A stretch of 64,000 nucleotides of DNA. It comes from a virus. Each line of letters starts with the position of its first letter. The first letter of the stretch is position 1. The notes under the pieces are model-generated. The model did not search any database. It saw only the letters and a program-made list of their open reading frames with translations, and was not told the DNA's origin. A program made the translations under genes and the position numbers. The stretch is taken from the IMG/VR virus record IMGVR_UViG_3300030333_004588, positions 1 to 64,000 of that record; one strand, written 5' to 3'. Of this stretch, positions 8,265-22,766 are shown piece after piece.

Positions 8265-8463
8265 ATCTTATCCTATTCCAAACTCTTTCGTGAAAATAAA
8301 ACATTATCATTCCTGTTACATTCATAATTACTGCATTCCAAAATGGTATCTCTGTAAAACTCATTGATAATACTAACCATGAATTACTAAATGCAATCAA
8401 TCTCCAACTAATTGATTTACTTGTAGACCTACTCCTTGTCTCTTTGAATACTTTCATACTCAT
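8251..8463 (-). CDS. DUF2061-like small membrane protein
   Basis: RSTSKSISWR...FYFHERVW pattern. Confidence 0.7.
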   Translation of the reverse strand: MSMKVFKETRSRSTSKSISWRLIAFSNSWLVLSMSFTEIPFWNAVIMNVTGMIMFYFHERVWNRIRYGKH

Positions 8464-9502
8464 TATAAAACTCCAAATTATATTTCTTTGACAAAACTTT
8501 TACTTCATCATTAAAAACTTTTATTTGTTCCTTACTTGGTAATAATTTATCATAAGAATACGATGGTATCATTACTCTAAAATCTAAAAAATTAAATCCC
8601 TTTTCTTCTGCAAGTCTAAAAATATCTCTAACTTCAACAATATTTTCATTTGTAAGAATTACGACATACTTTAAATTTGGTTTAGAACCTACTTTTTGAC
8701 TATTAATATAATCAACTCTTTCCCATAAGTGTTTCCAATCTTTTGGTTTTAATCTACGAGAGTCACAATATGTTTTTTCAGTTCCTGCAGATATATTAAT
8801 TTCAAGTCTGTCTACCTTTACATCTACAATTTCTTTTAATTGTTTGTCTGTTAGTCTTGATAGATTAGTAAATACCTTTAAGTAAAATCCTTTTTCTTTT
8901 GTGTATTTAATCATCTCTGTCATTTTAGGAACTAAAAATGGTTCACCACCACCACTAATTGATATCCATCTACAACCACCCATAGAATATAAATCATCAA
9001 TAATATTTTTATATATATCAAACTCAATAAAATGTTTAGACCACTCTTTCCAACCATCCCATTGTTTACCATCGTCTAACATATCTTTTGACCACGACCA
9101 ACAAAAATTACATCTATGATTACAAGGATTACCAACTTCAAATTGAAATTCTGTTGGTGCCGACATTGGTTTACCACTCAATATTCCTTGTCTAACTTCT
9201 GTAGGGAAATATTTCTCTATATTCTCCCAACTATCTAAATTATCTTGAATAACATTTTCTACGGTATAATGTGGACAATGAACACAAGAGTCATTCCACT
9301 CTTCATTCATTTCAGATAAATTATTTTTTAAGTTTTTTCTTAACTTAAAATATTTTTTAGAATTCCAAAATTTTTTAAATGAACCATCTTCACCATAATC
9401 ACCTATACTTGGAACTGAACCACAACATAACCAATATTTTTTATCAGGCGTTATCTTTCCAAATCTATAACCTATATTACACTTTGGAAGTAATTCGTTC
9501 AT
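8429..9502 (-). CDS. Radical SAM protein with N-terminal SPASM/twitch-like domain
   Basis: N-terminal C...LCC...FWNS...CVHC precedes CNHRCNFC and GGGEP. Confidence 0.85.
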   Translation of the reverse strand: MNELLPKCNIGYRFGKITPDKKYWLCCGSVPSIGDYGEDGSFKKFWNSKKYFKLRKNLKNNLSEMNEEWNDSCVHCPHYTVENVIQDNLDSWENIEKYFPTEVRQGILSGKPMSAPTEFQFEVGNPCNHRCNFCWSWSKDMLDDGKQWDGWKEWSKHFIEFDIYKNIIDDLYSMGGCRWISISGGGEPFLVPKMTEMIKYTKEKGFYLKVFTNLSRLTDKQLKEIVDVKVDRLEINISAGTEKTYCDSRRLKPKDWKHLWERVDYINSQKVGSKPNLKYVVILTNENIVEVRDIFRLAEEKGFNFLDFRVMIPSYSYDKLLPSKEQIKVFNDEVKVLSKKYNLEFYNEYESIQRDKE

Positions 9503-9961
9503 TTACCAACTTACTTCCCAATCTTTAAACTCTGATGCAATACAATCTATCTTGTAGTCTTTTCTACCACCAACTCGTTCCATAATTTTGTTCACGGCAG
9601 TGTTTCTTATACCATTAAGTCCATGTGTTAACATTAAATTATCGGAACCTCTTTCACCTTTCCTAACCATTGACTCATTATACCAAATATGAGCATTCAT
9701 TTGTGATAAAACTATAACTGCTCTGATGAATTCACCATCAATTTTACCACCCTTTTCTTTAAGTATTAATTCAATATCATGAACCATATCTTTCATCTCT
9801 TTTGCATAGTTATCTTTATTCTCAGGTATAAATACCTCTTTCAACTGATGAATACTTAATCTATCAATTAATTCACCTAATGTTGGTAACCACTTTCTAC
9901 TTTTTGACTTCATCTTTAAACTCCTCATATGTATTAAATTTAACTTGTCCTTGGTCTTCAA
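9503..9961 (-). CDS. Hypothetical protein (DUF6165-like N-terminus)
   Basis: TLGELIDRLSI motif; true start may be an internal Met. Confidence 0.45.
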   Translation of the reverse strand: MKTKDKLNLIHMRSLKMKSKSRKWLPTLGELIDRLSIHQLKEVFIPENKDNYAKEMKDMVHDIELILKEKGGKIDGEFIRAVIVLSQMNAHIWYNESMVRKGERGSDNLMLTHGLNGIRNTAVNKIMERVGGRKDYKIDCIASEFKDWEVSW

Positions 9962-10982
9962 ATCTCTTAATGTTCTTACGACTCATTTTAGTAATTATTT
10001 GAAACCAATTATTATCTCTTCTTTTTTCGTGTGTCATTTTATCTTGGTCTTCATCTTTGACATAAAGTCTTTTTCTTGGATGATTTCTATTATGAACCTT
10101 TAGTATATTCTTAATAACAAATTGTCTATAATCACTACCCATCATTTTCAAACATGATATTAAAAAACTTGTATCATCACCAACCATAGAAACTGCAGGT
10201 GGTAAGTTAACTCCACCTCTCACTAAATCTGATGACATCACTAAACAACTACCATCAAATTTTGGTTCTGTAATCAATTGAACATCAAGTTCTTTTGTTT
10301 TGGAATTAACTTCTTCCATTTCTTCTTGTGTCATAGTGTATCTAATAGACCAAGGTGATGTTAATGCCTTTCTTGTATCTTCCTCTGTATCCATATCATA
10401 ATATGGTTTATTAGTAAACTCAGGGTGTTCTAAAACTCTCCAAGTCTCATCCCACATTTTTCTAAGTGCAAATGTTAATGTATATCTGTAGATTTCTTGA
10501 GAGTCTGCATATTCTTTTACACCCTCTAATACATGAAAGAATTCTCTTGGTAATAAACAATCACTTTCACCCCACACTAAATAGTCACAAGGCATACACC
10601 ATTTTAAATTGAAATCTCTTCTATAGTCTGCAATACAATATGGTTTATCTGCCTGATAAACATTACTTTTTACCAACACTCCCCACTTACTAACTTCAGA
10701 ACATTTTTCATTAAATCTTTTGATTAATTCTTTTTTAGTAATTACATCATCATCTACTGATTCAAAGAATTCTGATATATTAAAGAATAAATCCACAATT
10801 ATATTTTTGGGATTTTCTACTATTTCAAGTGCTCTTTTTATTGAATTTAGATACTCATCTAACATCTCAATCTCATAAAACATTACATGACAACCTATTG
10901 CATATTTATTTTTTAAGTTCATCAAACAACTCCATTTGGTTTTTATCTTTTGGATATGGATTAAACCATTCACCATATTCAT
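9897..10982 (-). CDS. Putative GT-A glycosyltransferase
   Basis: DYLVWGESDCL (xxD motif), GDD; gene context. Confidence 0.5.
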   Translation of the reverse strand: MNMVNGLIHIQKIKTKWSCLMNLKNKYAIGCHVMFYEIEMLDEYLNSIKRALEIVENPKNIIVDLFFNISEFFESVDDDVITKKELIKRFNEKCSEVSKWGVLVKSNVYQADKPYCIADYRRDFNLKWCMPCDYLVWGESDCLLPREFFHVLEGVKEYADSQEIYRYTLTFALRKMWDETWRVLEHPEFTNKPYYDMDTEEDTRKALTSPWSIRYTMTQEEMEEVNSKTKELDVQLITEPKFDGSCLVMSSDLVRGGVNLPPAVSMVGDDTSFLISCLKMMGSDYRQFVIKNILKVHNRNHPRKRLYVKDEDQDKMTHEKRRDNNWFQIITKMSRKNIKRFEDQGQVKFNTYEEFKDEVKK

Positions 10983-11160
10983 CTACCCACAATTCCCATC
11001 CACGAAGATTTTCTCTTTTACTTCTCTTTTCATCATACATGAGATTTAATTGTATTGTCTCTAACATATCAGGTGTCAATCTATCACTACACTCTAAAAC
11101 TATTGGTAGTTTACTATGTCTAATTTTCTTCATAGTTTTCCTTAATTTCATTCCATACAT
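10906..11160 (-). CDS. Hypothetical protein
   Basis: ORF track. Confidence 0.45.
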   Translation of the reverse strand: MYGMKLRKTMKKIRHSKLPIVLECSDRLTPDMLETIQLNLMYDEKRSKRENLRGWELWVDEYGEWFNPYPKDKNQMELFDELKK

Positions 11161-11872
11161 TCATCATTAATTGATTTCTCATTTTCTTTTCAAATCCATT
11201 AAAGTGCCAAACATAACCAACTTCCCACATAGGACATAGATTACTTTGTAATACACCTCTTAAATGTAATTGTGATAAGTTAAATCTTTCATCAAGATAG
11301 TTTAATTTATGTTCACTTGCCCTTATCATATAATTAATTGGTGTTTGGTCTGACCCTTTTTTCAATGTTTCGTGTTGTCTTCTTCTTAACTCATCTTCAT
11401 TTTCAAGATAAAAATCCATAACACCTTTACACCAATCTTTGTGTTTTTTACTCATTACAATAAATCCACAATTAAAATAATCTGTCCAATCAAACTTTGT
11501 ATCTGGCCAGAAGTCTTGATATCCTTTTATACTATTGTGTGTCCATTCAATATTAAACTTATCCATCACTGCACTAAACTCACCATCAGTTTGTTCAAAG
11601 AAATTAGGACAATCCCAATGAACCATTGTGTCTACATCCACTAATGCAACTTGGTCATATTCTATCTCATTAGATTCAAGTATTTCATGAACCCACCATC
11701 TTTGCCATGTTGGTTTCATAATTGATTTATCTCTTATCTCTGTATCAAGAACAAATAATTCTACATTATTTTTCTTACACCAATAGTCCCATGATTTAAA
11801 ACACCATTCCTTGTAATCAAGATAGTCTGGTGCCCCATCCATACATGTCATAAATACTACATTATTCTTCAA
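11120..11872 (-). CDS. Glycosyltransferase (GT8/GT34-like)
   Basis: LVDVDT, YFNCGF, SDQTPINY and WHFNG motifs. Confidence 0.8.
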   Translation of the reverse strand: MKNNVVFMTCMDGAPDYLDYKEWCFKSWDYWCKKNNVELFVLDTEIRDKSIMKPTWQRWWVHEILESNEIEYDQVALVDVDTMVHWDCPNFFEQTDGEFSAVMDKFNIEWTHNSIKGYQDFWPDTKFDWTDYFNCGFIVMSKKHKDWCKGVMDFYLENEDELRRRQHETLKKGSDQTPINYMIRASEHKLNYLDERFNLSQLHLRGVLQSNLCPMWEVGYVWHFNGFEKKMRNQLMMNVWNEIKENYEEN

Positions 11873-12113
11873 TTAAACCACTCCATTTTTTTAGTTTTTC
11901 TCTTTTTATATCTGACCTTAAATCTACATCATCCCAACTGATTAAGTCATATTCATGTAGTAAATCAACCATACACATAACATCACCGACTTCTTCAGTT
12001 AGTTTTTCGTTATCGTAATACTTATCACATCTGATTGCCTTACTACATTCTTGAATTAATTCACCACACTCTTCCATAGTGATTGTTAATAGTTCTTGTA
12101 ATTTATCCTTCAT
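11862..12113 (-). CDS. MazG-like nucleotide pyrophosphohydrolase
   Basis: MEECGELIQ...EEVGDV. Confidence 0.8.
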   Translation of the reverse strand: MKDKLQELLTITMEECGELIQECSKAIRCDKYYDNEKLTEEVGDVMCMVDLLHEYDLISWDDVDLRSDIKREKLKKWSGLIEE

Positions 12114-12999
12114 TAGTCCCTCTTACACCCTCAATATAATCTAATAAATCTATTGTTGGATTCCAACCCAATAGTTCTTTTGCCTTAGTATCTGTACAAA
12201 GTGTTTCTTTTACTTCACCTGGTCTTTTTGGTATGTAAGTATATCCCCAATCAAATGATTGTGCAACAACATTAATTGAATAATTTTCTCCTCTACCCAA
12301 TTCAAATATTTGTCCATTTACTTTATATTTGTTTGTATCTAATACTAATGCATCACCACATTTAACTAACCCATCTACAATATCATATACATGAGTAAAG
12401 TCTCTTCTCTGTTCACCATCACCTGTAATAGTTAATTCATCTCCATTTTTATATTGTGTTTCAAATATACCAATTACAGTACAATATTCACCCTCTGTTA
12501 ATTGATGAGGCCCATATACATTATAAAATCTACATATTGCCATTGGTAAATCAAATAGTTTATTATACATTTGAATAACTTCTTCACCTTGCCACTTTGT
12601 AAATGTGTATGGATTTTTATATACACCACCATGAAAACTACTTGACCCTGCATAAACTATTGGGATATCATCTTCTTTATTTCTTACCCATTCTAATAAA
12701 TTCAATGTTCCAAGAACATTTGCCTCAAAAGTTATTGCAGGAAACTCAAATGATGGTTGTATCCTTGGTAATGCAGCTAAATGATAAATTAAATCAGGTT
12801 TTTCTATAAAGAAATCAAAGTCAACTGCATCCCTTAAATCTACATTAAAGTATGTTACATTTTTATGGTCAATTTCATTTTCTTCTTTACCTGTTGAATA
12901 ATTATCTAAACTAACTACTTTGTGTCCATCGTCCAATAATCTCTTTATCAGATTTGTTCCAACAAATCCTGCACCTCCTGTGACTAATATTTTCATCAT
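12103..12999 (-). CDS. NAD-dependent nucleotide-sugar epimerase/dehydratase
   Basis: GGAGFVG, YxxxK (YTFTK), RFYNVYGP, RDFTHV. Confidence 0.9.
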   Translation of the reverse strand: MMKILVTGGAGFVGTNLIKRLLDDGHKVVSLDNYSTGKEENEIDHKNVTYFNVDLRDAVDFDFFIEKPDLIYHLAALPRIQPSFEFPAITFEANVLGTLNLLEWVRNKEDDIPIVYAGSSSFHGGVYKNPYTFTKWQGEEVIQMYNKLFDLPMAICRFYNVYGPHQLTEGEYCTVIGIFETQYKNGDELTITGDGEQRRDFTHVYDIVDGLVKCGDALVLDTNKYKVNGQIFELGRGENYSINVVAQSFDWGYTYIPKRPGEVKETLCTDTKAKELLGWNPTIDLLDYIEGVRGTNEG

Positions 13000-13008
13000 C
13001 TTTTTCTC

Positions 13009-13689
13009 CTATATTTTGTAAGTCTCAAATTTTGTTCCCTCTAATCTTAAATTAATAAAAGGATTTAAAGAACATATATTAACTTCATGAAAGTTTAATA
13101 ATTGTTTTAATGCAATTGTTTCTCTTTCCATGTTGTTTAAAAATCCTTTTATACCATCCCAATTACTTGCAGATGTCCAATCTTTTTCTACATATTCATG
13201 ATAATACATTTTACCATCAATCTCTCCACCATCATGTCCACATAATATTATATTTTTTGCTCCCATATAGTATGCAATGTGAACTGCAGTGGTCACGGTT
13301 GAACGACTAACAATAATTTCTTCATCAATGTCAAGTTCCATTAGTTCCATGTCAAAATCTTTTTTTCTTGGATTATGAGTAAACATATATGAATTAGGAT
13401 TATTACAATTATTCACTCCTTTGTCTTCATAACCTTTATAATACTGACTATAAATTAATGGTATATCTTTTTCTTTTAATTCTTCTACCAATCTTGTAAA
13501 TCTTGGTTCTTCATTACAATCTTTTACAACTACATAATCACATTCAAAGTATCTGAAAATATCATTTACACCAAGAACTATTTTATTATCAAAAAAACTT
13601 TTGTCAATATGATTTAATGATGGGCCACCACTAACAACATAAATGTCTTTGTCTTTATGAATATTTTTTAATGAACCGAAATCTTTCAT
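13009..13689 (-). CDS. Maf/DUF115 (MptE-like) putative ulosonate transferase
   Basis: VVSGGPSL...GVN...AYYMGAKNIILCGHD. Confidence 0.7.
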   Translation of the reverse strand: MKDFGSLKNIHKDKDIYVVSGGPSLNHIDKSFFDNKIVLGVNDIFRYFECDYVVVKDCNEEPRFTRLVEELKEKDIPLIYSQYYKGYEDKGVNNCNNPNSYMFTHNPRKKDFDMELMELDIDEEIIVSRSTVTTAVHIAYYMGAKNIILCGHDGGEIDGKMYYHEYVEKDWTSASNWDGIKGFLNNMERETIALKQLLNFHEVNICSLNPFINLRLEGTKFETYKI

Positions 13690-14357
13690 TTTGTGAATCT
13701 CCTATATAAAAATTTACCAAAATCAAAATCAATTTGATTATCAACATCAACACCCTCTACATCATCAATCTCATAAAAATGTGGTTTATACCCAATTATA
13801 TTTTTACTATCAATCATAACATTTCTATCAATAATAGAAAGACTATAAGTTAGTTTATAGATATCAGGTAAGTCTTGTGTATTTGGTGAATTCATTGGGT
13901 CATAGTTTAATGGTTTATCATCTAACCACATATGATGTTTCAATACATTCACGGTAGTCAAACTATCGTATCCATTATCTATACCATTAATAAATCTGTT
14001 AATAAAATCATAATATGTGCTTTCTTTAACTAATGGTGCAGTGCAAGGACTATAAATTAAATAATCTGTATCTGTTGTTTTTGCCATGTTCTCAAAGAAT
14101 TCACTATTAGTACATTCGTTACTTGCATAATATGTTTCTCTTCTTTTTTTACTAACACCATATTTGTCTGCAATGTCCATGGCTCTTTGTGAATCAGTAT
14201 TAACAATAATCTCATCAATTAAAGTAATCTTTTTCAACATCTCAAGTTTAACCTCAAGTAAACTTTTACCATCAACAAATGGTATAAAGTTTTTATCAAT
14301 TATTCTTTGTGACCCTTTCCTAATAGGAACCACCGCAGTTATTTTTTTTCTACTCAT
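13686..14357 (-). CDS. neuA: Acylneuraminate/ulosonate cytidylyltransferase (NeuA-like)
   Basis: VPIRKGSQRIIDKN, TAPL, DVDNQIDF. Confidence 0.8.
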   Translation of the reverse strand: MSRKKITAVVPIRKGSQRIIDKNFIPFVDGKSLLEVKLEMLKKITLIDEIIVNTDSQRAMDIADKYGVSKKRRETYYASNECTNSEFFENMAKTTDTDYLIYSPCTAPLVKESTYYDFINRFINGIDNGYDSLTTVNVLKHHMWLDDKPLNYDPMNSPNTQDLPDIYKLTYSLSIIDRNVMIDSKNIIGYKPHFYEIDDVEGVDVDNQIDFDFGKFLYRRFTK

Positions 14358-14721
14358 CTAACAATCTCTCCAATAAAAATAATGTTCTATCTCTTGATTC
14401 ATCATCACCAAATTCTAACGCCTTATCATCAATATAATAATCTGCAATTATTTTTGGACTTGGGCCTGATACCTTTTTTGTATATGGATTAACTTGATGC
14501 ATATCAAATATCAATCCTTTACTTTCACACCAATCAATTGCTTCTTGTAGTGCAGGTTCACCTCTACTTGTCCATAAAATTAACTTGTGTCCTTTTTTCT
14601 GTAATTTTTTTAGAATACTCATTAATCGTTTTTGTTTTTTAGTTTGTTCTCCTATGTCAGGAAAATTATACTCTGTTAAACAACCATCAAAATCAACTGC
14701 GAATATAAGTGTTTGACCCAT
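14350..14721 (-). CDS. HAD-family phosphatase (capless)
   Basis: VDFDGCL, WTSR, K...YIDDKA. Confidence 0.8.
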   Translation of the reverse strand: MGQTLIFAVDFDGCLTEYNFPDIGEQTKKQKRLMSILKKLQKKGHKLILWTSRGEPALQEAIDWCESKGLIFDMHQVNPYTKKVSGPSPKIIADYYIDDKALEFGDDESRDRTLFLLERLLDE

Positions 14722-15817
14722 AACTTTCTCCTTTATTTATATTACTATCTACTAATTCTTTTCCTATAAGATATGCCTCACGAATATTATTTAAATCATT
14801 ATAAAACCCATTATCATTATAATCGTAGACATCTTTAATATGTTTATAAATAAGATTTCTTGCAAATGTTCCAACTGCAACTCCTTGAAATCTTACATTA
14901 CCTTGAACTGCTAAATCTGCAGTCAATGAATTTGTTCCACCTGATAAGACAACATTCAATTGTCGTCTTCTCTTGTATATCAATTGTTTATCTTTTTTAT
15001 TTAATCTCATATTAAATTGTTTATTAACTACATCTGCAGTTGCAACTGCCTGTAATGTAGTATTGAAATCATTTCTACCACCACTCATTGGATAACCATC
15101 TGCCTGTAATATCATTAGTCCAGGTTTTGTCATATCTAATGCCTTCTCAATTCTATTTTTTAATTCAAAGTTTCCAATGTGTAATCTATCCAAACACATA
15201 CTATTGTGTCCATCTGGATTTGCCTTCACAACCATTTCCCATTCTTTCATAATCACATCGGTTTCTGCAACTGCCGCATGTAACTCTATATTCTCTGCAC
15301 CTAACTCTATACATTGTGGTAATAATTCTTCTAATGCCTTTTCATTATGACTATAAGTTATACACTCTACAATAGGACAAACTGCACTACATGCACCACA
15401 CCCAATACATTTCTCAGTAATCACAAATGCAGTTTCAACTTTTATTTCAATAGGTTCAATTGCCTCTGTAGGACAAACTGGTGCAACACATAAACCACAT
15501 TTTACACACATATCTTCATGTATGAATGCCTTCCTAACATGGTGGTCACCTGGCATTCCAACACTAACCATAACATATGGTCTTACACCAATATCAATAC
15601 CAAGTTTATCTGACACATCATATGCCCTATCAATACCATCCATTGCTGCCTTTACAACATCAGGTGTTGTAGAAATATCTAATCCCTTTGCACCTGCCAA
15701 TGTATAAATCATTGCAAGTCTACGAACTTCTTCAGTATCTTCGTTACCTGCCCCACATATCATCTTGAAATATTGATTGTTATGAAATAATTCTTGTAAT
15801 TGTTCTTGTCTTGTCAT
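14693..15817 (-). CDS. LdpA-like 2x[4Fe-4S] protein
   Basis: FKMICGAG...YTLAGA N-terminus, DHHVRKA, two ferredoxin motifs (CVKCGLC..CP; CIGCGACSAVCP), QADGYPMSG, SGGTN. Confidence 0.75.
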   Translation of the reverse strand: MTRQEQLQELFHNNQYFKMICGAGNEDTEEVRRLAMIYTLAGAKGLDISTTPDVVKAAMDGIDRAYDVSDKLGIDIGVRPYVMVSVGMPGDHHVRKAFIHEDMCVKCGLCVAPVCPTEAIEPIEIKVETAFVITEKCIGCGACSAVCPIVECITYSHNEKALEELLPQCIELGAENIELHAAVAETDVIMKEWEMVVKANPDGHNSMCLDRLHIGNFELKNRIEKALDMTKPGLMILQADGYPMSGGRNDFNTTLQAVATADVVNKQFNMRLNKKDKQLIYKRRRQLNVVLSGGTNSLTADLAVQGNVRFQGVAVGTFARNLIYKHIKDVYDYNDNGFYNDLNNIREAYLIGKELVDSNINKGESYGSNTYIRS

Positions 15818-16566
15818 AACCTATCCTGTATTTCTTTTGACCTTGTATTATATTCTGTTGAGAACCTATTGTAATGTGATGCCTTACTTTCTAACCACAA
15901 TGATTCCCACTCTAACATAAGTGAAATGATTGTGTTTAAATCATTTATATTACTTTCATCTAAACTCAAAATAACATTTCTTGTCTCAATACAATCTAAT
16001 ATTTCTTTCTTAAATAATTCTTGAATAAACTCTATACTTTGTGTTCCAATGTTTCCACCCATATAAGTTTTCAATCCTAATTTCTTTGACTCTTGTAAGA
16101 TATGAGTTACCACCTTACAAATTTCAGAAGACATTACATCTTGTTTACCATAACCAAATGACTTTGTTAAATCAGAACGACCAACTACAATACCACTTAA
16201 CATTTTACTTGTAGGTGATTCTAATATATCATTCAAATTATTATATGCCTGTTGACTTTCAATATTAATAAATTTATTACCATCATAAGGTAATTTATTA
16301 ATTGATTCTGAAAACTTTTGTAATGCAAATCTTGATTCAACCATTGGTGCAACAATCCCATCCACATTTAAATCAATACAACGATTGATATCAGAGATTG
16401 CTTCACACCCACCAATTTTAACACTCAATTTTAAATCTAATTCTCTACAAACTTTAGATATTTTCCAAAGGTCTGAATCTAAAACTCCTTCATCTTCAAA
16501 AGATTGTTTTATTCCTATGACACCATTATCTTTAAGTTCATCCAATAATTTTACCATATAACTCAT
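15814..16566 (-). CDS. HpcH/HpaI aldolase / citrate-lyase-beta family protein
   Basis: KIGGCEA, GIVAPMVES, INIES, VGRSDL. Confidence 0.75.
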   Translation of the reverse strand: MSYMVKLLDELKDNGVIGIKQSFEDEGVLDSDLWKISKVCRELDLKLSVKIGGCEAISDINRCIDLNVDGIVAPMVESRFALQKFSESINKLPYDGNKFINIESQQAYNNLNDILESPTSKMLSGIVVGRSDLTKSFGYGKQDVMSSEICKVVTHILQESKKLGLKTYMGGNIGTQSIEFIQELFKKEILDCIETRNVILSLDESNINDLNTIISLMLEWESLWLESKASHYNRFSTEYNTRSKEIQDRL

Positions 16567-17164
16567 TTTGTTTTTCTTGTTTTTCTATTGTTTTTGGGTG
16601 ATAAATACACAATTCTTCATGTGGTGGTAAATGTGAATATGTTTTACAACCTGTAATTATTTCGTGTACTGGTTTCTCCCATCTGATATCATCTCTATTT
16701 CTAAAAACTCTACTTTGATAATCAGGAAAATTAATCCACCCTTTTTCTGTTACTGACCATCTCCATTTATCAATATGTTCTTGTGTAATACCATCTACGG
16801 TATTAATTCTTGGTATCCAAATTAAATCAACATCATTAATTTCTAATATTTGTTTTAATTGTGACATAAGAACTTTATGTGGTATTTCATCTGCATCCAA
16901 ATGAAATATATAGTCACCTGTAGATTTTTCTATAACTGAATTTTTCTTTCTTGAAAAATCATTATTTAATTGTTGTTCATAAAAAACTATATCAGGATAT
17001 TGTCCATGTATATATTCATCAAATACTCTCCAACATTGATAATCAGAATGGTCGTCACATATAACAATTTCGTCACCCTCATCACGATGTTCAACAAGAA
17101 ACTTAAGTAGTTTTTCTATTTCTTTATGTTCATTATGAACGGTTATACCATAGGTAATCTTCAT
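16538..17164 (-). CDS. Glycosyltransferase family 2
   Basis: VHNE, DDHSD, HLDADE, VHE. Confidence 0.85.
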   Translation of the reverse strand: MKITYGITVHNEHKEIEKLLKFLVEHRDEGDEIVICDDHSDYQCWRVFDEYIHGQYPDIVFYEQQLNNDFSRKKNSVIEKSTGDYIFHLDADEIPHKVLMSQLKQILEINDVDLIWIPRINTVDGITQEHIDKWRWSVTEKGWINFPDYQSRVFRNRDDIRWEKPVHEIITGCKTYSHLPPHEELCIYHPKTIEKQEKQNELYGKIIG

Positions 17165-17646
17165 AATTCAATATCAAGTTCCATTATTTTTTGTTCTATA
17201 ATCAAATCATCTAAGGCTTCTTGTGGTAATTCATGATACTCATCTTCAAGATAAACTCTTCTTTTTCTACACTCTCTTAAAGTATAAGTTCTGAATATTT
17301 TATATTGTTCTATATAATCTTTTAATGTTCTGTATAATTTTTTTACATCTGATTGTGAAATTGTATTTTGGAAATCACCAACCTCTGTTGTGTTTTTATC
17401 TTTACTTAATCCACCAAATTGTTCAATCAATGCTTGAAATTTTGAGGCAGTGATTGGTCTTGTGACTGCAGTGTCTAATTGTAACCCAACAAAAAAGTAT
17501 GTAAGTCTTCCATTCTTTTTTCTATATGGATATCTTGGACTTAAACATAACACGGTTCTTCTAATTCCTTTTGTTTCATTTTTACTCTTATAAATAAAAG
17601 AAACTATCTGACCTGGTTGAACTTTATCCCATGAAGTATTTTTCAT
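17161..17646 (-). CDS. Hypothetical protein
   Basis: ORF track; overlapping start/stop codons. Confidence 0.55.
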   Translation of the reverse strand: MKNTSWDKVQPGQIVSFIYKSKNETKGIRRTVLCLSPRYPYRKKNGRLTYFFVGLQLDTAVTRPITASKFQALIEQFGGLSKDKNTTEVGDFQNTISQSDVKKLYRTLKDYIEQYKIFRTYTLRECRKRRVYLEDEYHELPQEALDDLIIEQKIMELDIEL

Positions 17647-18086
17647 TCTTTTATAATTCCCATATCTTTACATGCATCCATGAACTCGTGTTGTCCATAT
17701 GACTTTGCATTATCAACATCTAATTTATGTTCATGTCCCTCATATTGTGGGTCTTTCATTTCTTCTTCTGTTAATTTAGTTACTTGTGCAAATTTCCACA
17801 TCCAATTATTTTTAGTCCCATCTGGATAAATTATTCCAAACTTACCCATGTTTAATACTGATGGAAACCATGTAATCTTTCTATCATAATCAAATACTGA
17901 TATTTCATTCATTAATTGTGTTGATGATTCAACTGCCTTTTTCAGTTCTTCTGTATCGTTTTTGTAATATGAATTACTTGTGAACCCACATTTAAAACAA
18001 ATATAGGAAGTAAAGTGTTCAGTAGATTCTTCAAAACATTGATTCTCAGTAAAACAATTTGGACATTTAGTTTTTACTTCTGACAT
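17643..18086 (-). CDS. Zn-ribbon hypothetical protein
   Basis: CPNC...CFKCG. Confidence 0.6.
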   Translation of the reverse strand: MSEVKTKCPNCFTENQCFEESTEHFTSYICFKCGFTSNSYYKNDTEELKKAVESSTQLMNEISVFDYDRKITWFPSVLNMGKFGIIYPDGTKNNWMWKFAQVTKLTEEEMKDPQYEGHEHKLDVDNAKSYGQHEFMDACKDMGIIKE

Positions 18087-19408
18087 TATATCTTCCTCAA
18101 TTTAGGTAAACCCTTTTCTTTTGGTTTATCTTCTGTTTTCATATTGGGTAATTTTATATCAACTTGTTTAGGTAATGTATCTAATTGTTGGTCAATAATT
18201 TGTTCTAATCTTTCTCTCATTTTATCATGAGTAAACTTTTTTCTATTCATCAACATTAATTTTTTACCTTTAACTGCATACTTCGTATAATTTTTATATA
18301 CATCTCTAAGTATCTGTGATGCAAGACCATAATTAACACCAAACCACTCACAAGTATCAACCATAAATTCTTTTGGAAATGCACCTTTTGGAACTTTTAC
18401 ATATTGTCCAATAAGTTTTACGGTATTATTTTCATCAAGAAAATCTTTTTGTCCAGTCTCACATGGTGCAATAATTGGTTTACCACTAAATGATGCTTCA
18501 AGTAATGGACGACCAAAACCCTCACCATGAGTAAAAGATAAATGTGCCTTTACCTTTGGATGATTATATAAACAATTCATTTCATCATCAGTCAAGTCCC
18601 CATGTAATAACCAAACTTTAGGATATGTTTTTGCCTTTACATCTTTCCTTATATATTCAATTTTCTTTTTTATATCTTCTCTATCTATAACTGAAAATCC
18701 TGCACTACTTGTTTTTAAAATAAGTCCTGGTGGATTTGGCATATTTTTAAATACTTCAAAAAATACTTTAATCATCATACCGACATCTTTTCTATCTTCA
18801 CCGAGACCACCTTGTAACCAATGACCTGTATATAAAAAATTCCAATCTGTAGTTATCTTTTCAAACTCATCAACAAGTTGTTTTGAAAATTCATTAGTCT
18901 CTTTAAATATCTCTGGGTCTGCACCTTCAAATAATGTTGTTAACTGACTATTAACTTTTAGTTGACCTACTACTTTTCCACTTTGGTCTTTTTTATCATA
19001 AGATACATTTTTAAAATTAACTGCACTCCACTCTGATGTTATAATATTAACATCCATACGATTCAAACCCTCAACCCATGGTGCTGGTGGTATAGTATGT
19101 TCTATACCTGCCGTTACACCAATATTCTTTTTTGCAATTGGTGAAAATTCATTAGGTACACTAATTTGTAAATGAACTTCAGGTTGTCTTTCAATGTTTG
19201 GTTGTTTTAATATTCGTTTATGTATTTCTCTATGCCAATGATTGTGTTCTTCTAATGCATTCATTGGTGTGGTTCCCCATCTCATAGATTGTATTCTAAC
19301 ATCATATTTATCAGATTCAATAAGTGCCCTACAAATATCTCTTGTGTGATTTCCATATCCACTTCTTGTTGAAACTGGTCCAGTAACTAATACAATTGGT
19401 TTACTCAT
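18086..19408 (-). CDS. Glycosyltransferase family 4
   Basis: SGYG N-terminus; GEGFGRPLLEA. Confidence 0.85.
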   Translation of the reverse strand: MSKPIVLVTGPVSTRSGYGNHTRDICRALIESDKYDVRIQSMRWGTTPMNALEEHNHWHREIHKRILKQPNIERQPEVHLQISVPNEFSPIAKKNIGVTAGIEHTIPPAPWVEGLNRMDVNIITSEWSAVNFKNVSYDKKDQSGKVVGQLKVNSQLTTLFEGADPEIFKETNEFSKQLVDEFEKITTDWNFLYTGHWLQGGLGEDRKDVGMMIKVFFEVFKNMPNPPGLILKTSSAGFSVIDREDIKKKIEYIRKDVKAKTYPKVWLLHGDLTDDEMNCLYNHPKVKAHLSFTHGEGFGRPLLEASFSGKPIIAPCETGQKDFLDENNTVKLIGQYVKVPKGAFPKEFMVDTCEWFGVNYGLASQILRDVYKNYTKYAVKGKKLMLMNRKKFTHDKMRERLEQIIDQQLDTLPKQVDIKLPNMKTEDKPKEKGLPKLRKI

Positions 19409-20829
19409 ACTTCAAATACCTCATAACTTTTTCTTGGTGTCCATTTTTCAAATGCAGTTTCCATATGGTCAATAAATAATTGAGACATATGTCTTGCAGT
19501 CATCATTGCATCATCTCCTGTTACAAATTCATGTCCGAGTTGACCTGCAGTTGTTCTTTCTTCTGGTGTTTTATCATACCAATATCTTATTGCATCTGCA
19601 ACATCAATCCAATCTGCTCTATCATCCATAATATATGGTGTTGGAACTGAACCTTGTAATGACCTTGTTCTCGGCCATACTGGTTTAACCCATTCACCAT
19701 GAGTTAAATCCTCGTTGTGTTCCCACTTTCTCCAATCGTGTAGTGAATGAATATCTTTGTAATCTTGATAAGTAATATACTCATCCTTTAATTTAAAACC
19801 ACATTGGTCTTGTAGTCCACCCGTAACATTAACAATGATTGGTGTTCCACTCATTAATGATTCACAAGTTCCTAATCCAAATCCCTCATTGGATGCAATA
19901 TTAATCGTTACATCAACTACATTATACAATTGATTCATACCCTCAGATGTAAGTTTCTCTGTTGAAAAGACAACATTTAAATCAGGACAAATTTCATCTA
20001 TGACTGCCGGTAAATCTGTTCCATTATTATCAACTGGTTGTGTATGTAAAACAAAACCAACTTTATCTCTTTGTTCTTGTGTTAATCCATCTGCAAATGT
20101 TTTAAATGCCAAGATTAAATCTGAAGTCATCTTTCTTCTAATATTTCTATTGTTAAATAAAATACAAAAATCTACCTCTTTACCATTAAACAATTCATTT
20201 TTTAGTTTATTAACTTTAAACTTTTCATCCTCATCAACTATTGGATAAAAATATTTCTCATTAATACCATGTGGAATATATGTTGAATCCCATTCTGTTC
20301 TTTCTTTATTCTGACAAACATTCTGAACAATATTGTGTGTTTGTTTAGAAATATTCATAATCAAATCACAACTCTCATAAAATGGTTCATTCCATTTTGG
20401 ATAAGGTAAGTCATCCCAAATATTATAATAGAAGATAGGAATACTTTGTCTAATTTCATGTTCCATTTGATACAACCAAACCCAAAATCTTGGGTCTGTG
20501 TAGTGTAGAATTGCATCTGGTTTTTCTTGAACTAAAAGTGACCTAACTAACTCTTGACTACCATAACCATCTATTGGATATATTGTTAATTTTGCATCTT
20601 CAACACCTGTTTCTTCCCTAACGGCCTGATTCATATCAATAATCTTTCCATTATCTGGATGTTTTATTGCTCCACCCACTTGAATCCAATCGTATTTATC
20701 AATAGTTCCGAAAACTATTTCCCTTGACATTGTTCCGACACCACTATGCATTCGTAAGTCATCTGACAATAATAAGATTTTCTTCTTTTTTGGTTTAGAA
20801 GAAATCTTCTGAAGTTTTGGTAATTGCAT
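19405..20829 (-). CDS. Glycosyltransferase family 4
   Basis: NRNIRRK; NEGFGLGTCESLMSGTP. Confidence 0.85.
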   Translation of the reverse strand: MQLPKLQKISSKPKKKKILLLSDDLRMHSGVGTMSREIVFGTIDKYDWIQVGGAIKHPDNGKIIDMNQAVREETGVEDAKLTIYPIDGYGSQELVRSLLVQEKPDAILHYTDPRFWVWLYQMEHEIRQSIPIFYYNIWDDLPYPKWNEPFYESCDLIMNISKQTHNIVQNVCQNKERTEWDSTYIPHGINEKYFYPIVDEDEKFKVNKLKNELFNGKEVDFCILFNNRNIRRKMTSDLILAFKTFADGLTQEQRDKVGFVLHTQPVDNNGTDLPAVIDEICPDLNVVFSTEKLTSEGMNQLYNVVDVTINIASNEGFGLGTCESLMSGTPIIVNVTGGLQDQCGFKLKDEYITYQDYKDIHSLHDWRKWEHNEDLTHGEWVKPVWPRTRSLQGSVPTPYIMDDRADWIDVADAIRYWYDKTPEERTTAGQLGHEFVTGDDAMMTARHMSQLFIDHMETAFEKWTPRKSYEVFEV

Positions 20830-21089: not shown

Positions 21090-21569
21090 TTAATCAAAAA
21101 TAATGAATTTTTTATCTATTTTTTTAGAATACTTTAATGCAGAACTTGTTCCATCTGTGACTTTACCATCTTTACAAAATGCAACTACATTATCACTATA
21201 TTTAACTAAATCCTTATTTCGTTTATGGTAATTTCCAACATTATATTGTTTATTATATCTAAATGCCCCAAACACACAATGTTGGTTATGTGATTCATGA
21301 TAAGGTGGAAACTCACTATAATCTATATCAAAGTCAAGTGAGAATTGTTTTGCATATTTATCTGCACCTTGTTTTGCACCACCACTAACTATTTCTAAAT
21401 CACTACCAATTTTTTCTTTTAATTTAAAAATAAAATCCTTTATTTTTCTTTTATTAGTATAACTTCTACTTCCTATGATTGCTACTTTCATCATCGTTTC
21501 TTTTTTGTCTCCTTGGTTTCTTATCTGGGTCTCTATTGACAAACTCCCAAGTCTGTTTAAAATTCTCAA
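21090..21569 (-). CDS. SLOG/DUF2493 (YspA-like) protein
   Basis: IIGSR, VSGGAKQGAD, RN, GT; true start is likely MMKVAIIG near 21494. Confidence 0.75.
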   Translation of the reverse strand: MRILNRLGSLSIETQIRNQGDKKETMMKVAIIGSRSYTNKRKIKDFIFKLKEKIGSDLEIVSGGAKQGADKYAKQFSLDFDIDYSEFPPYHESHNQHCVFGAFRYNKQYNVGNYHKRNKDLVKYSDNVVAFCKDGKVTDGTSSALKYSKKIDKKFIIFD

Positions 21570-21933
21570 TACCCTTTACTATACCATTACTTGGGTCATG
21601 GTATCTCCAACTAAATCTTGAATATTGTATATGATGTGCATCATGAACTTCCCTTGGTATAATATCATACCATATAAAATATAATTGTCTATCAAAAAAT
21701 TCAGGTCTTATTATAGTTTTTTGTGGTCTATCAGTAACAGCTTCCCTTTGTTTTAAAAATTCACTTAATCTACTTAAGTCTATAGTCTCGGTTTCCCTAT
21801 CATACCAAAAGTAAATTGTAAAGTGACATTGAAATGTATCTTCACTTATAGAAGATAAGGCATCTAATACTTCTTTTTCCCATGGTTTGTCAATAAAATC
21901 TGACAACTTTATTCTTAATGTTGGTGTAATCAT
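21466..21933 (-). CDS. Hypothetical protein
   Basis: ORF track. Confidence 0.5.
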   Translation of the reverse strand: MITPTLRIKLSDFIDKPWEKEVLDALSSISEDTFQCHFTIYFWYDRETETIDLSRLSEFLKQREAVTDRPQKTIIRPEFFDRQLYFIWYDIIPREVHDAHHIQYSRFSWRYHDPSNGIVKGIENFKQTWEFVNRDPDKKPRRQKRNDDESSNHRK

Positions 21934-22766
21934 TATAAGTCCTTACATAGTCTACATTTTTTATGTTTTTCACATTTTTCATAATCATGTGCGATAATTT
22001 TACCATTCTCGTCATAACACTCAGCCATAAATTCATCTAATCTACTCATAACCTTATTAATACTTGGTTTACCACTCGCAGGTGAAAACACTTGTAACCT
22101 TTTTTGTGGATATTGTATATTCTCATACAATTTTCTCTTCAATATTAAATATTCAATATCTATTTTATCCATTGGAATATCAGTAGTATCTGAAAAGAAT
22201 TTTTTATACAACAATAACTGATTAGTTTTATTCTTATCTGCCTTTTGATATTTATTCCAACCAAATGTTGCAGTTTTAATATCAATAATCTTAATACGAC
22301 CTGTTACTTTATTATGAATTACCACATCCATATATCCAACAAAAGTTAATTTATTTTCTAATTCAGATTTTATATCTAACTCAATACCAACTAATTCTGT
22401 ATTCTTTTTTGGAAAATGACTTGACTTTCTTTTTAGAAACTCGTCTATAATATTAATACCATCCTGAAAGAATGATTTCATATCTTCTAAACTTACATCA
22501 AAATCATCACCATGTTGTTCTTTAGATTTCTTGTAGTTCTCTTCCATTCTGTATTGTAGAATGTCATGTAGTGGTAATGAATCTGCATATTTAATTGTCT
22601 TACCATAATATGCAACCAAGTATGCCTGTATAGTTTCATGGATTGCAGTTCCAAATAAAGTATAAATGTTACCAACAAAAGTTTCTGCCTTATCTACATA
22701 ATCAAGTTTCCAAGTGTAAGGACACTTATCCCATTTTGAGAATTGACTATAACTAATTCTACTCAT
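21933..22766 (-). CDS. PD-(D/E)XK nuclease (RecB/Cas4-like)
   Basis: SYSQ..CP, GTAIHE, GYMD...IIDIKT, QLLLY, C-terminal Cys cluster. Confidence 0.8.
   Translation of the reverse strand: MSRISYSQFSKWDKCPYTWKLDYVDKAETFVGNIYTLFGTAIHETIQAYLVAYYGKTIKYADSLPLHDILQYRMEENYKKSKEQHGDDFDVSLEDMKSFFQDGINIIDEFLKRKSSHFPKKNTELVGIELDIKSELENKLTFVGYMDVVIHNKVTGRIKIIDIKTATFGWNKYQKADKNKTNQLLLYKKFFSDTTDIPMDKIDIEYLILKRKLYENIQYPQKRLQVFSPASGKPSINKVMSRLDEFMAECYDENGKIIAHDYEKCEKHKKCRLCKDL

What the first reader, a model, noticed from the sequence alone, without database searches (positions are those of the whole stretch)
13009..16566. Candidate non-canonical ulosonic (sialic/Kdo-like) acid pathway containing an LdpA-like Fe-S protein
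Seen: five overlapping genes in the order HpcH-type aldolase, LdpA-like 2x[4Fe-4S] protein, HAD phosphatase, NeuA-like CMP-transferase, Maf/DUF115. Known: ulosonate pathways run synthase, phosphatase, CMP-activation, transferase, and Maf proteins transfer such sugars to flagellin. No NeuB or KdsA synthase is present in the window. LdpA is known as a cyanobacterial clock-input protein with no assigned reaction. Inference: the aldolase replaces NeuB/KdsA and LdpA is a redox or dehydratase enzyme in making an unusual 2-keto-acid sugar. That would give LdpA a biochemical function.
Basis: partly seen in the sequence, partly recalled or inferred. Interest (0 to 1): 0.8.

Follow-up and report, generated by a model that had tools for sequence, protein, structure and literature searches.

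The report
Phage keto-acid sugar module with Fe-S enzyme
An uncultured T4-like ocean phage carries five coupled genes, built around an iron-sulfur relative of the cyanobacterial clock protein LdpA, that most likely make and CMP-activate an acidic keto-sugar without the usual synthase; the same uncharacterised core recurs in over a hundred phage, bacterial and archaeal gene clusters.

Summary
Five overlapping minus-strand genes (16566-13009) encode a divergent HpcH/HpaI-fold aldolase, an LdpA-superfamily TIM barrel with an inserted 2x[4Fe-4S] ferredoxin domain, a small HAD phosphatase, a NeuA/PseF-like cytidylyltransferase and a minimal DUF115 (Maf/Cst fold) domain. The 74-kb phage record has no NeuB, KdsA, second aldolase or ThDP enzyme.

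In 113 related loci the Fe-S gene almost always lies between a pyruvate-aldolase-type gene (97/109) and a HAD phosphatase (102/108). The flanking genes belong to different, non-homologous families in phages and in cells. A CMP-transferase lies within three genes in 69/90 loci. Most of the others carry a ThDP enzyme plus a reductase instead, as in published acyl-branched-sugar pathways that use aldolase-made alpha-keto acids.

Best reading: the triad builds a hydroxylated alpha-keto (ulosonic) acid, which this phage CMP-activates and transfers. The chemistry of the Fe-S step is unknown. The protein is a paralogue of LdpA, not LdpA itself. NeuB or KdsA homologues occur elsewhere in some related islands, so "replaces NeuB" is plausible but unproven. 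This scan found the same cassette before on other DNA. No paper describing it was found.

The parts
15814..16566 (-). Divergent HpcH/HpaI-fold class II (metal-dependent) pyruvate-aldolase-type enzyme ('A'), 250 aa
   Evidence: Pfam HpcH_HpaI 33.6 bits. hhalign to the canonical HpaI-type family of related loci gives 97% probability, E 1e-10. The metal ligands are kept (E103, D132), but the position of the catalytic Arg holds the invariant K50. Closest solved chains are YfaU, HpaI and HpcH/HpaI aldolases, with weak pyruvate kinase hits. It is directly upstream of the Fe-S gene in 66 loci.
14693..15817 (-). LdpA-superfamily Fe-S enzyme: TIM barrel with a 2x[4Fe-4S] ferredoxin domain inserted at about residues 97-150, 374 aa
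   Evidence: Pfam Fer4_21, LdpA_Fe-S-bd and LdpA_C. NCBIfam LdpA model aligns full length at 142 bits against a cut-off of 450. The AF2 model (pLDDT 70, pTM 0.73) is a (beta/alpha)8 barrel with only generic TIM matches, Z about 14-16. Eight Cys form two ferredoxin motifs. Barrel residues K18, D47, S85, D91, H93, K96, E178, H180, Q238, D240 and R320, plus the Gly-rich loops at 292-296 and 312-320, are invariant across the superfamily sample. It is the most conserved protein of the module: 83% identity to the L082 phage copy, where the aldolase is 66%.
14350..14721 (-). Small capless HAD phosphatase, BT0820 type, 123 aa
   Evidence: NCBIfam BT0820 family 78 bits against a cut-off of 165; phrog_1238. 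Motif I (DFDGC) and the later WTSR and DD motifs are visible in the translation. Closest solved chain is 2obb, E 1e-15. It is directly downstream of the Fe-S gene in 66 loci; a HAD-IA enzyme takes that place in 36 others.
13686..14357 (-). CMP-ulosonate synthetase-type cytidylyltransferase (NeuA/PseF-like), 223 aa
   Evidence: Pfam CTP_transf_3 45.7 bits. Best NCBIfam model is PseF, 57 bits against a cut-off of 205.7. The N-terminal nucleotide-binding motif PIRKGSQRIIDKN is present. Closest solved chains are NeuA enzymes. It follows the HAD gene in most phage-type loci.
13009..13689 (-). Minimal DUF115/MptE-like domain protein (Maf/CstII sialyltransferase fold), 226 aa: probable CMP-sugar-dependent transferase
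   Evidence: Pfam MptE-like 47.5 bits; phrog_4603 'sialyltransferase' E 3e-6. AF2 model pLDDT 84. Best structural matches: Maf 5mu5 Z 13.8, archaeal HPPK MptE 8sd5 Z 12.6, Cst-I 2p56 Z 10.3. It is homologous to the C-terminal domain of the cellular HMGL-like aldolase (hhalign 95.6%). Of 56 loci with such a domain, 49 also carry a CMP-transferase.
16538..20829 (-). Co-conserved upstream block: GT2 (16538-17164), two unknown ORFs (17161-17646, 17643-18086) and two GT4-like glycosyltransferases (18086-19408, 19405-20829)
   Evidence: Pfam. The same five genes precede the module in the same order in the nearest phage relatives: L001, L082, L084, L104-L106, L110-L112, L122, L126, L182.
9897..12999 (-). 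Co-conserved downstream block: NAD-dependent epimerase/dehydratase (12103-12999), MazG-like ORF (11862-12113), unknown 250-aa ORF (11120-11872) and unknown 361-aa ORF (9897-10982)
   Evidence: Pfam and PHROG. The SDR, 250-aa and 361-aa genes follow the module in L001, L082, L104-L106, L110, L126 and L182. The 361-aa family also occurs in ThDP-type loci.

Best explanation
The five genes are one translationally coupled biosynthetic unit inside the phage's roughly 20-kb glycan island. The first three genes form an evolutionarily fixed triad that builds a hydroxylated alpha-keto acid, that is, a 3-deoxy-2-ulosonic-type acid.

Proposed steps:
1. The divergent HpcH-fold, metal-dependent aldolase joins pyruvate (or a close analogue) to a phosphorylated aldehyde. 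This is inferred.
2. The LdpA-like protein binds the phosphorylated intermediate through the standard phosphate-binding loops of its barrel. It carries out a tailoring step served by its two ferredoxin-type clusters. The most likely chemistry is a reduction or elimination (deoxygenation or enoate-type reduction). This is inferred and is the weakest link.
3. The HAD enzyme removes the phosphate. This is inferred from family and position.
4. The NeuA/PseF-like enzyme makes the CMP-sugar.
5. The minimal DUF115 domain, together with the neighbouring GT2 and GT4 enzymes, puts the sugar into a glycan made during infection.

Shown here: the gene anatomy, the folds, the family relationships, the conserved synteny, and the absence of NeuB, KdsA or any other C-C-forming candidate from the 74-kb record. 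In other loci the same triad hands its keto acid to a YerE-like ThDP enzyme that would graft it onto a 4-keto sugar as a side branch.
For: - Anatomy and coupling.
- Triad conservation across 113 loci from phages, at least six bacterial lineages and an archaeon: aldolase-type neighbour 97/109, HAD neighbour 102/108.
- Non-homologous replacement of both partners while the Fe-S protein stays. HpcH-divergent swaps with the HMGL/DmpG-type (PDB 3DXI-like), and BT0820-HAD swaps with HAD-IA. This argues that function, not ancestry, holds the three together.
- Two alternative outputs. A CMP-transferase is present in 69/90 loci. Most of the remaining 21 loci have a ThDP enzyme plus SDR instead; that ThDP enzyme scores 505 bits to solved chain 8rph and 252 bits to acetolactate synthase. 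Both outputs consume alpha-keto acids.
- Published work shows YerE-like enzymes using gamma-hydroxy-alpha-keto acids made by HMGL-type (ErwI) or HpcH/citrate-lyase-type (MMAR_2331) pyruvate aldolases (PMC9306805).
- The aldolase keeps its metal ligands.
- DUF115 domains co-vary with CMP-transferases and are fused to the aldolase or to the Fe-S protein in cells. The fold is closest to Maf.
- The record has no NeuB, KdsA, ThDP enzyme or second HpcH gene. Five more phage records of this type have no NeuB or KdsA either.
- Near-identical DNA is present in 19 marine runs from at least 14 studies between 2014 and 2025. A metatranscriptome holds exact contigs across the cytidylyltransferase/DUF115 junction; this is weak evidence.
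Against: - There is no biochemical evidence for any step.
- The aldolase has Lys where HpaI has its essential Arg, so its reaction may differ.
- The Fe-S barrel has no informative structural or profile relative, so a redox-tailoring role rests on the ferredoxin insert alone. The order of the Fe-S and aldolase steps is unknown.
- Many loci add a canonical HpaI-type aldolase, always paired with a KdsB-like transferase or the ThDP enzyme. Its role is unexplained, and it could be the real synthase there.
- NeuB plus CTP_transf_3 plus MptE-like genes lie about 7-10 kb from the triad in phage record G004. A KdsA homologue lies near the module in G003. NeuB homologues lie 10-28 kb away in four cellular genomes.
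- All records of this phage type are fragments, rated 8-40% complete.
Confidence: 0.5

Rival explanations
1. Same end product, different order. The Fe-S protein and the phosphatase act before the aldolase and supply an unusual aldehyde or deoxy-aldose from a common sugar phosphate. In this they would play the part that the aldehyde dehydrogenase ErwJ/DmpF plays for the aldolase ErwI/DmpG. The aldolase (and, where present, the canonical HpaI-type aldolase) then condenses that aldehyde with pyruvate.
For: - The cellular partner is a DmpG/BphI-type aldolase that lacks its usual dehydrogenase partner and sits next to the Fe-S gene instead.
- The erwiniose cluster shows the aldolase-plus-aldehyde-supplier logic.
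- Class II pyruvate aldolases of these families normally take unphosphorylated aldehydes (established knowledge).
- This order would also explain why a second aldolase can be added downstream.
Against: - Gene order is almost always aldolase, Fe-S, HAD.
- No precedent is known to me for a ferredoxin-domain TIM barrel that generates an aldehyde.
- The order of steps cannot be told from sequence.
Confidence: 0.2
2. Two pathways packed side by side. The cytidylyltransferase and the DUF115 protein belong to an ordinary pseudaminic/legionaminic-type route whose NeuB-type synthase lies in the unsequenced 60% of the phage or in the host. The triad makes an unrelated keto acid, for example a side chain or substituent.
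For: - The cytidylyltransferase's best model is PseF.
- Phage record G004 has NeuB, CTP_transf_3 and MptE-like genes together, 7-10 kb from its triad.
- The complete 296-kb phage runs the triad without any CMP-transferase.
- Cellular loci hold NeuB homologues on the same contigs. At least L005 also holds its own PseF-like transferase.
Against: - The HAD and cytidylyltransferase genes overlap by 8 nt. That adjacency recurs in dozens of loci, with no NeuB in 17-kb neighbourhoods or in six phage records.
- In cells a dedicated KdsB-like enzyme sits inside the cassette in 69/90 counts.
- None of the other genes of a Pse/Leg route (PseB, PseC, PseH, PseG) flank the module in the window.
Confidence: 0.15
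3. The Fe-S protein is not a catalyst of sugar chemistry. It is a redox-sensing or electron-carrying subunit, as LdpA is thought to be, that gates or supports the aldolase.
For: - LdpA is known only as a redox-linked clock input (established knowledge; review PMC13421787 listed).
- Both clusters have four Cys ligands each, so neither has an open iron site.
Against: - The barrel holds about ten invariant polar residues (K, D, H, E, Q, R) on strand ends, plus phosphate-binding loops, conserved down to 25-30% identity. That is the signature of an active site.
- It is the most conserved protein of the module.
- It is kept while both partners are swapped for non-homologous ones.
Confidence: 0.08

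Closest known systems
CMP-Kdo and Kdn/Neu5Ac-9-phosphate pathways (KdsA-KdsC-KdsB; Kdn9P or Neu5Ac9P synthase, HAD phosphatase, CMP-synthetase)
   Same: The logic is the same: C-C condensation giving a phosphorylated 3-deoxy-2-ulosonic acid, a small HAD phosphatase, a CTP_transf_3 cytidylyltransferase, then a dedicated transferase. In this module the gene order follows that reaction order.
   Different: There is no PEP-dependent KdsA or NeuB barrel. A divergent pyruvate-aldolase fold stands in its place. An extra Fe-S TIM-barrel enzyme sits between synthase and phosphatase. The HAD is BT0820-type rather than KdsC/YrbI. The sugar is unknown.
Acyl-branched sugar pathways: yersiniose (YerE/YerF), erwiniose (ErwE/F/I/J), caryophyllose (MMAR_2331/2332); PMC9306805
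   Same: Pyruvate aldolases of the HMGL/BphI or HpcH/citrate-lyase families make a hydroxylated alpha-keto acid as a glycan building block. About a fifth of the loci related to this module contain a YerE-like ThDP enzyme and a reductase in place of the CMP-transferase.
   Different: The published clusters, as described in the paper, have no Fe-S protein or HAD phosphatase. This phage has no ThDP enzyme in its record and uses CMP activation instead.
LdpA, the cyanobacterial light-dependent period protein (NCBIfam NF045992)
   Same: The architecture is the same over the full length: barrel halves around a 2x[4Fe-4S] ferredoxin insert, with a shared set of invariant barrel residues across the superfamily sample.
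   Different: It scores 142 bits against a cut-off of 450. It sits in a phage glycan operon rather than a clock context. It is about 57% identical to the abundant cellular cassette form, and more distant superfamily members are about 25-30% identical. LdpA has no assigned reaction.
Maf (motility accessory factor, PDB 5MU5) and Cst-type sialyltransferases; archaeal MptE pyrophosphokinase (8SD5)
   Same: The DUF115 core fold is shared (Z 13.8, 10.3 and 12.6), as are the GxPS and GxDG motifs. Like Maf, it is associated with a CMP-sugar synthetase.
   Different: It is only 226 aa and lacks Maf's N- and C-terminal domains. The acceptor is unknown. The fold alone cannot exclude a pyrophosphokinase activity.

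Membership tests
LdpA (NCBIfam NF045992, equivalog) | Score above the curated equivalog cut-off (450 bits) | tested here: not met
   142 and 140.9 bits. Among the 14 control genomes only one passes the cut-off.
LdpA (NCBIfam NF045992, equivalog) | Full-length architecture: barrel halves flanking two CxxCxxCxxxCP ferredoxin motifs | tested here: met
   Model positions 10-326 of 360 are aligned. Eight Cys form two motifs, invariant in A1 and invariant or nearly so in A5. The AF2 model is a TIM barrel.
LdpA (NCBIfam NF045992, equivalog) | Cyanobacterial clock context or function | tested here: not met
   The gene is in a phage glycan operon, flanked by glycosyltransferases and sugar enzymes.
HpcH/HpaI class II aldolases (PF03328) | Homology to the family | tested here: met
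   Pfam 33.6 bits against a cut-off of 25. hhalign 97% to the canonical members of related loci. The top solved-structure hits are YfaU and HpaI.
HpcH/HpaI class II aldolases (PF03328) | Glu and Asp ligands of the divalent metal | tested here: met
   E103 and D132 are invariant and align with E153 and D179 of the canonical family.
HpcH/HpaI class II aldolases (PF03328) | Catalytic Arg (Arg70 of HpaI) | tested here: not met
   The aligned position holds the invariant Lys50 (VKIGG against VRV).
HAD phosphatases | Motif I DxDG(T/C) and the later Ser/Thr and acidic motifs | tested here: met
   DFDGC, WTSR and DDK are visible in the translation.
HAD phosphatases | Membership of the BT0820 equivalog or of KdsC | tested here: not met
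   BT0820 model 78 bits against 165. No KdsC/YrbI model is among the matches.
CMP-ulosonate synthetases (CTP_transf_3: KdsB, NeuA, PseF, LegF) | Family homology and the N-terminal nucleotide-binding motif | tested here: met
   Pfam 45.7 bits against 22.6. The motif PIRKGSQRIIDKN is present. NeuA structures are the closest solved chains.
CMP-ulosonate synthetases (CTP_transf_3: KdsB, NeuA, PseF, LegF) | Assignment to one substrate class (PseF or KdsB equivalog cut-offs) | tested here: not met
   PseF 57 bits against 205.7. KdsB models score below 27 bits.
Maf / DUF115 glycosyltransferases | DUF115 core fold and motifs | tested here: met
   Pfam 47.5 bits against 34.6. Maf 5mu5 Z 13.8 over 179 residues. 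G22, S24, G151 and D153 are conserved.
Maf / DUF115 glycosyltransferases | Flanking N- and C-terminal domains of Maf, and a flagellin acceptor | tested here: not met
   The protein is 226 aa and matches only residues 261-503 of the 632-aa Maf. The acceptor cannot be tested with these tools.
Canonical Kdo / nonulosonic acid pathways | PEP-dependent synthase (KdsA, PF00793, or NeuB, PF03102) | tested here: not met
   No match in the 74-kb record. The record is about 40% complete, so absence from the whole phage is not shown.
YerE-type acyl-branched sugar pathways | ThDP-dependent carboligase next to the keto-acid-forming genes | tested here: not met
   No TPP_enzyme_C match in the record. The feature is met in 16 related loci.

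The most novel reading that the evidence does not exclude
The LdpA superfamily is a previously unrecognised class of ferredoxin-linked TIM-barrel enzymes that act on phosphorylated keto-acid or sugar intermediates. Together with a pyruvate aldolase and a phosphatase it forms a universal, PEP-independent route to tailored ulosonic acids in phages, bacteria and archaea. Cyanobacterial LdpA would then be a metabolic enzyme, or a descendant of one, recruited as a redox input to the clock.
Probability: 0.3. Interest if true: 0.8.

Novelty: new variant of a known kind. Interest (0 to 1): 0.66.

Why it matters
If the reading holds, there is a second, pyruvate-aldolase-based way to make CMP-activated acidic keto-sugars. 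It would be widespread in marine phages and in many bacterial and archaeal surface-glycan loci, and it would include an Fe-S enzyme with no known chemistry.

- It would add a new sugar, or family of sugars, to microbial glycobiology.
- It would explain part of what abundant ocean phages do to their hosts' surfaces.
- It would give the first testable enzymatic hypothesis for the protein superfamily that contains the clock-input protein LdpA.
- The same triad feeding YerE-like enzymes would link ulosonic-acid and acyl-branched-sugar biosynthesis through one shared keto-acid module.

Tried and rejected
- BLAST of the region's DNA and of the Fe-S protein against deposited phages found no match. 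A cellular Fe-S homologue found no match in plasmids.
Contexts came from the search for related loci instead.
- Fold searches with the Fe-S model gave only generic TIM barrels, Z about 14-16 and many tied. NeuB, PseI, DAHP synthase, DERA, class II FBP aldolase, IspG and Hcy-methyltransferase barrels all appear without separation.
- A profile search of the PDB matched only the ferredoxin insert.
- hhalign of the Fe-S family against NeuB, KdsA, HMGL-type and both HpcH-type families gave probabilities of 4% or less. The idea that the Fe-S barrel is itself a disguised NeuB/KdsA-type synthase has no support.
- Phosphonate route (PEP mutase, decarboxylase, CMP-aminoethylphosphonate): considered because of the clan of the aldolase, the ThDP enzyme and a cytidylyltransferase-aminotransferase fusion. 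Set aside because the aldolase family matches HpaI/YfaU and not PEP mutase or isocitrate lyase. No PEP-mutase family turned up among the neighbour genes that were scanned; many ORFs in the related loci were not scanned.
- Third Fe-S cluster on C21/C169/C208: C169 lies in a helix on the far side of the modelled barrel, and C21 and C208 are not invariant across the superfamily. Left open, not adopted.
- Residue comparison with bona fide LdpA failed. Ten distant representatives all scored below the LdpA cut-off.
- Promoter, terminator and T4 late-promoter motif scans were uninformative.
- RNA run X21 gave no cover and X20 gave only patchy cover.
- Literature searches for HpcH plus cytidylyltransferase, LdpA-like, BT0820 and HMGL-like plus cytidylyltransferase found nothing that describes this cassette.

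Full report
**What is there.** The window is 64 kb of a 74,113-bp IMG/VR virus record that CheckV rates about 40% complete. It has 30% G+C, and almost every ORF of 100 aa or more, including every annotated gene, is on the minus strand. It encodes a family-B DNA polymerase, a ribonucleotide reductase and a DnaB-type helicase.

They overlap by 4, 29, 8 and 4 nt. A GT2 gene overlaps the first by 29 nt, an SDR epimerase/dehydratase gene follows after 9 nt, and no terminator-like site lies between 8 and 22 kb.

**What the proteins are.**

Gene 1 is a real but divergent member of the HpcH/HpaI fold.
- Pfam scores 33.6 bits over half the model, and profile-profile comparison with the canonical aldolases of related loci gives 97% probability.
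- The two metal ligands are kept (E103, D132), but the catalytic arginine position holds an invariant lysine.
- The closest solved chains are YfaU and HpaI, with weak pyruvate kinase hits.

Gene 2 aligns with the NCBIfam LdpA model over its whole length, but at 142 bits against a cut-off of 450. It is therefore a paralogue within the LdpA superfamily, not LdpA.
- The AlphaFold model (pLDDT 70, pTM 0.73; the ferredoxin insert is below 50) is a (beta/alpha)8 barrel with a two-cluster ferredoxin domain inserted after about residue 97.
- Fold and profile searches give only generic TIM barrels and ferredoxins. No profile-level link to NeuB, KdsA, HMGL-type or HpcH-type barrels was found.
- Across a sample reaching down to 25% identity, K18, D47, S85, D91, H93, K96, E178, H180, Q238, D240 and R320, plus two glycine-rich loops (SGGTN, GxxxGxxAR), are invariant or nearly so.
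- That pattern looks like an active site with a standard phosphate-binding motif. This reading is inference.

Gene 3 is a capless HAD of BT0820 type with intact motifs.

Gene 4 is a CTP_transf_3 enzyme nearest to NeuA and PseF.

Gene 5 is a bare DUF115 core. Its model (pLDDT 84) matches the central domain of Maf (Z 13.8), the archaeal pyrophosphokinase MptE (Z 12.6) and Cst-I (Z 10.3).

**Is the linkage conserved?** I collected the Fe-S family's neighbourhoods from three sources: GTDB genomes (11 true hits), IMG/VR (23) and JGI/ENA metagenome contigs (80).

Among 113 loci:
- The gene directly upstream is the divergent HpcH type in 66 and an HMGL-like, DmpG-type aldolase in 31. The latter is homologous to PDB 3DXI.
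- The gene directly downstream is the BT0820-type HAD in 66 and a HAD-IA enzyme in 36.
- A CMP-transferase lies within three genes in 69 of the 90 loci with enough sequence.

Two arrangements dominate.
- Phage-type: divergent HpcH, Fe-S, HAD, PseF-like transferase, with or without DUF115.
- Cell-type: HMGL-like aldolase fused to a DUF115-like domain, Fe-S, HAD-IA, canonical HpaI aldolase, KdsB-like transferase (259 bits), and a TIGR04326 / KpsC-S-like protein. It occurs in Nitrosomonadales, Microthrix, Omnitrophota, Bdellovibrionales, Syntrophorhabdus, Acidimicrobiales, other Deltaproteobacteria and a Micrarchaeota MAG.

Both partners of the Fe-S protein are thus replaced by non-homologous enzymes of the same general activity while the Fe-S protein stays. 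This is strong evidence for a functional triad.

The window's DUF115 protein is homologous to the C-terminal domain of the cellular aldolase (95.6%). The 200-residue N-terminal extension of the 557-aa Fe-S proteins (P0073 and relatives) is that same domain, E 6e-44.

**The second output.** Most of the loci without a CMP-transferase carry a 590-aa ThDP enzyme and an SDR next to the triad, often with a 4,6-dehydratase and a DegT aminotransferase. The ThDP enzyme scores 505 bits to solved chain 8rph, twice its score to acetolactate synthases. A 296-kb phage record of this type, rated 100% complete, has no CTP_transf_3, MptE-like, NeuB or KdsA match.

Steitz et al. [quoted passage not shown] They proposed that these acids are made by the pyruvate aldolases encoded beside those enzymes: ErwI, which is BphI/DmpG-like, and MMAR_2331, of the aldolase/citrate-lyase family.

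The simplest common denominator of both outputs is therefore that the triad delivers a hydroxylated alpha-keto acid. If the acid is long enough to cyclise, it is a 3-deoxy-2-ulosonic acid that a CTP_transf_3 enzyme can activate. Unknown CMP-activated ulosonic acids do exist in nature; the SugarBase preprint reports C10 species in Magnetospirillum.

**What remains uncertain.**
1. The chemistry of the Fe-S step is unknown, and so is whether it precedes or follows the aldol step. I favour a redox or elimination tailoring of the phosphorylated intermediate, because of gene order, the phosphate-binding loops and the electron-transfer insert. This is inference.
2. The lysine-for-arginine change in the aldolase may mean a different donor, for example PEP or a substituted pyruvate.
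3. The canonical HpaI aldolase is absent from this phage but present in most cell-type loci. There it is always paired with the KdsB-like or the ThDP enzyme, and its role is unexplained.
4. NeuB- or KdsA-type synthases are not excluded.
   - A KdsA homologue lies about 9 kb from the module in phage record G003.
   - NeuB plus CTP_transf_3 plus MptE-like genes lie 7-10 kb from the triad in G004.
   - NeuB homologues lie 10-28 kb away on the same contigs in four cellular genomes.
   - Against this, six phage records of the window's type lack both synthases. No NeuB or KdsA turned up among the neighbouring ORFs that I scanned, and many ORFs in those loci were not scanned.
5. The DUF115 fold is shared by sialyltransferases and a pyrophosphokinase. 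Its co-occurrence with CMP-transferases (49 of 56 loci) favours a transferase.

**Occurrence.** Near-identical DNA is present in 19 marine or seawater runs from at least 14 studies, 2014-2025. One DNA run covers the whole stretch almost without a difference (one mismatch). One metatranscriptome holds exact contigs at 13598-13914, across the cytidylyltransferase/DUF115 junction. This is weak evidence of expression, since DNA carry-over is not excluded.

**Relation to earlier work of this scan.** Look-ups made after my synteny analysis show that the scan has met this cassette several times on other DNA. It was seen in a phage form, in the cellular two-aldolase form, as the HMGL-DUF115 fusion, and in the ThDP/branched-sugar form. 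Those agents reached similar readings. Their notes gave me the 3DXI pointer, which I checked, and the erwiniose literature, which I read. I found no paper that describes the cassette or assigns a reaction to any LdpA-like protein.

**Verdict.** The Fe-S chemistry, the identity of the sugar and the "NeuB replacement" claim remain hypotheses. I rate it a new variant of a known kind of pathway, containing an enzyme family of unknown chemistry.

Noticed in passing
L138:13218-15263 (also L133, L140, L144): A 681-aa fusion of a CTP_transf_3 cytidylyltransferase with a class-III aminotransferase lies a few genes downstream of the module in several marine contigs. An aldo/keto reductase and a GNAT-like gene are next to it.
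   Followed up: partly
P0073, P0081, P0100; L154: These 557-aa forms of the Fe-S protein carry an N-terminal DUF115-like domain. In other loci the same domain forms the C-terminus of the HMGL-like aldolase, which suggests the three proteins form a physical complex.
   Followed up: partly
L182 (90% identical relative), Fe-S gene: The Fe-S ORF is split into 161-aa and 185-aa pieces on this metagenome contig. DNA run X4 shows a +1/-1 indel pair at window positions 14807 and 14811. It could be a frameshift variant or an assembly error.
   Followed up: no
window 11862-12113: A small MazG-like nucleotide pyrophosphohydrolase ORF (83 aa) is wedged between the SDR gene and the unknown 250-aa gene of the glycan island.
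   Followed up: no
window 8429-9502: A radical SAM protein has a SPASM-like region at its N-terminus and a weak HAD-like match at its C-terminus. It lies at the downstream edge of the island. B12-binding radical SAM genes also recur in several related loci (cluster c18).
   Followed up: no
window 21090-22766: A YspA/SLOG (DprA-like) protein and a PD-(D/E)XK nuclease lie directly upstream of the glycan island.
   Followed up: no
L190:2005-2835 (record G003): A phage closely related to this one (Fe-S protein 83% identical) carries a KdsA-type synthase gene about 9 kb from its module. That module also holds a canonical HpaI aldolase and a KdsB-like transferase.
   Followed up: partly
window 9897-10982 and 11120-11872: Two ORFs without any family match (361 and 250 aa) travel with the module in the nearest phages. 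The 361-aa family also appears in the ThDP-type loci, so it may belong to the shared chemistry or to transfer of the product.
   Followed up: no
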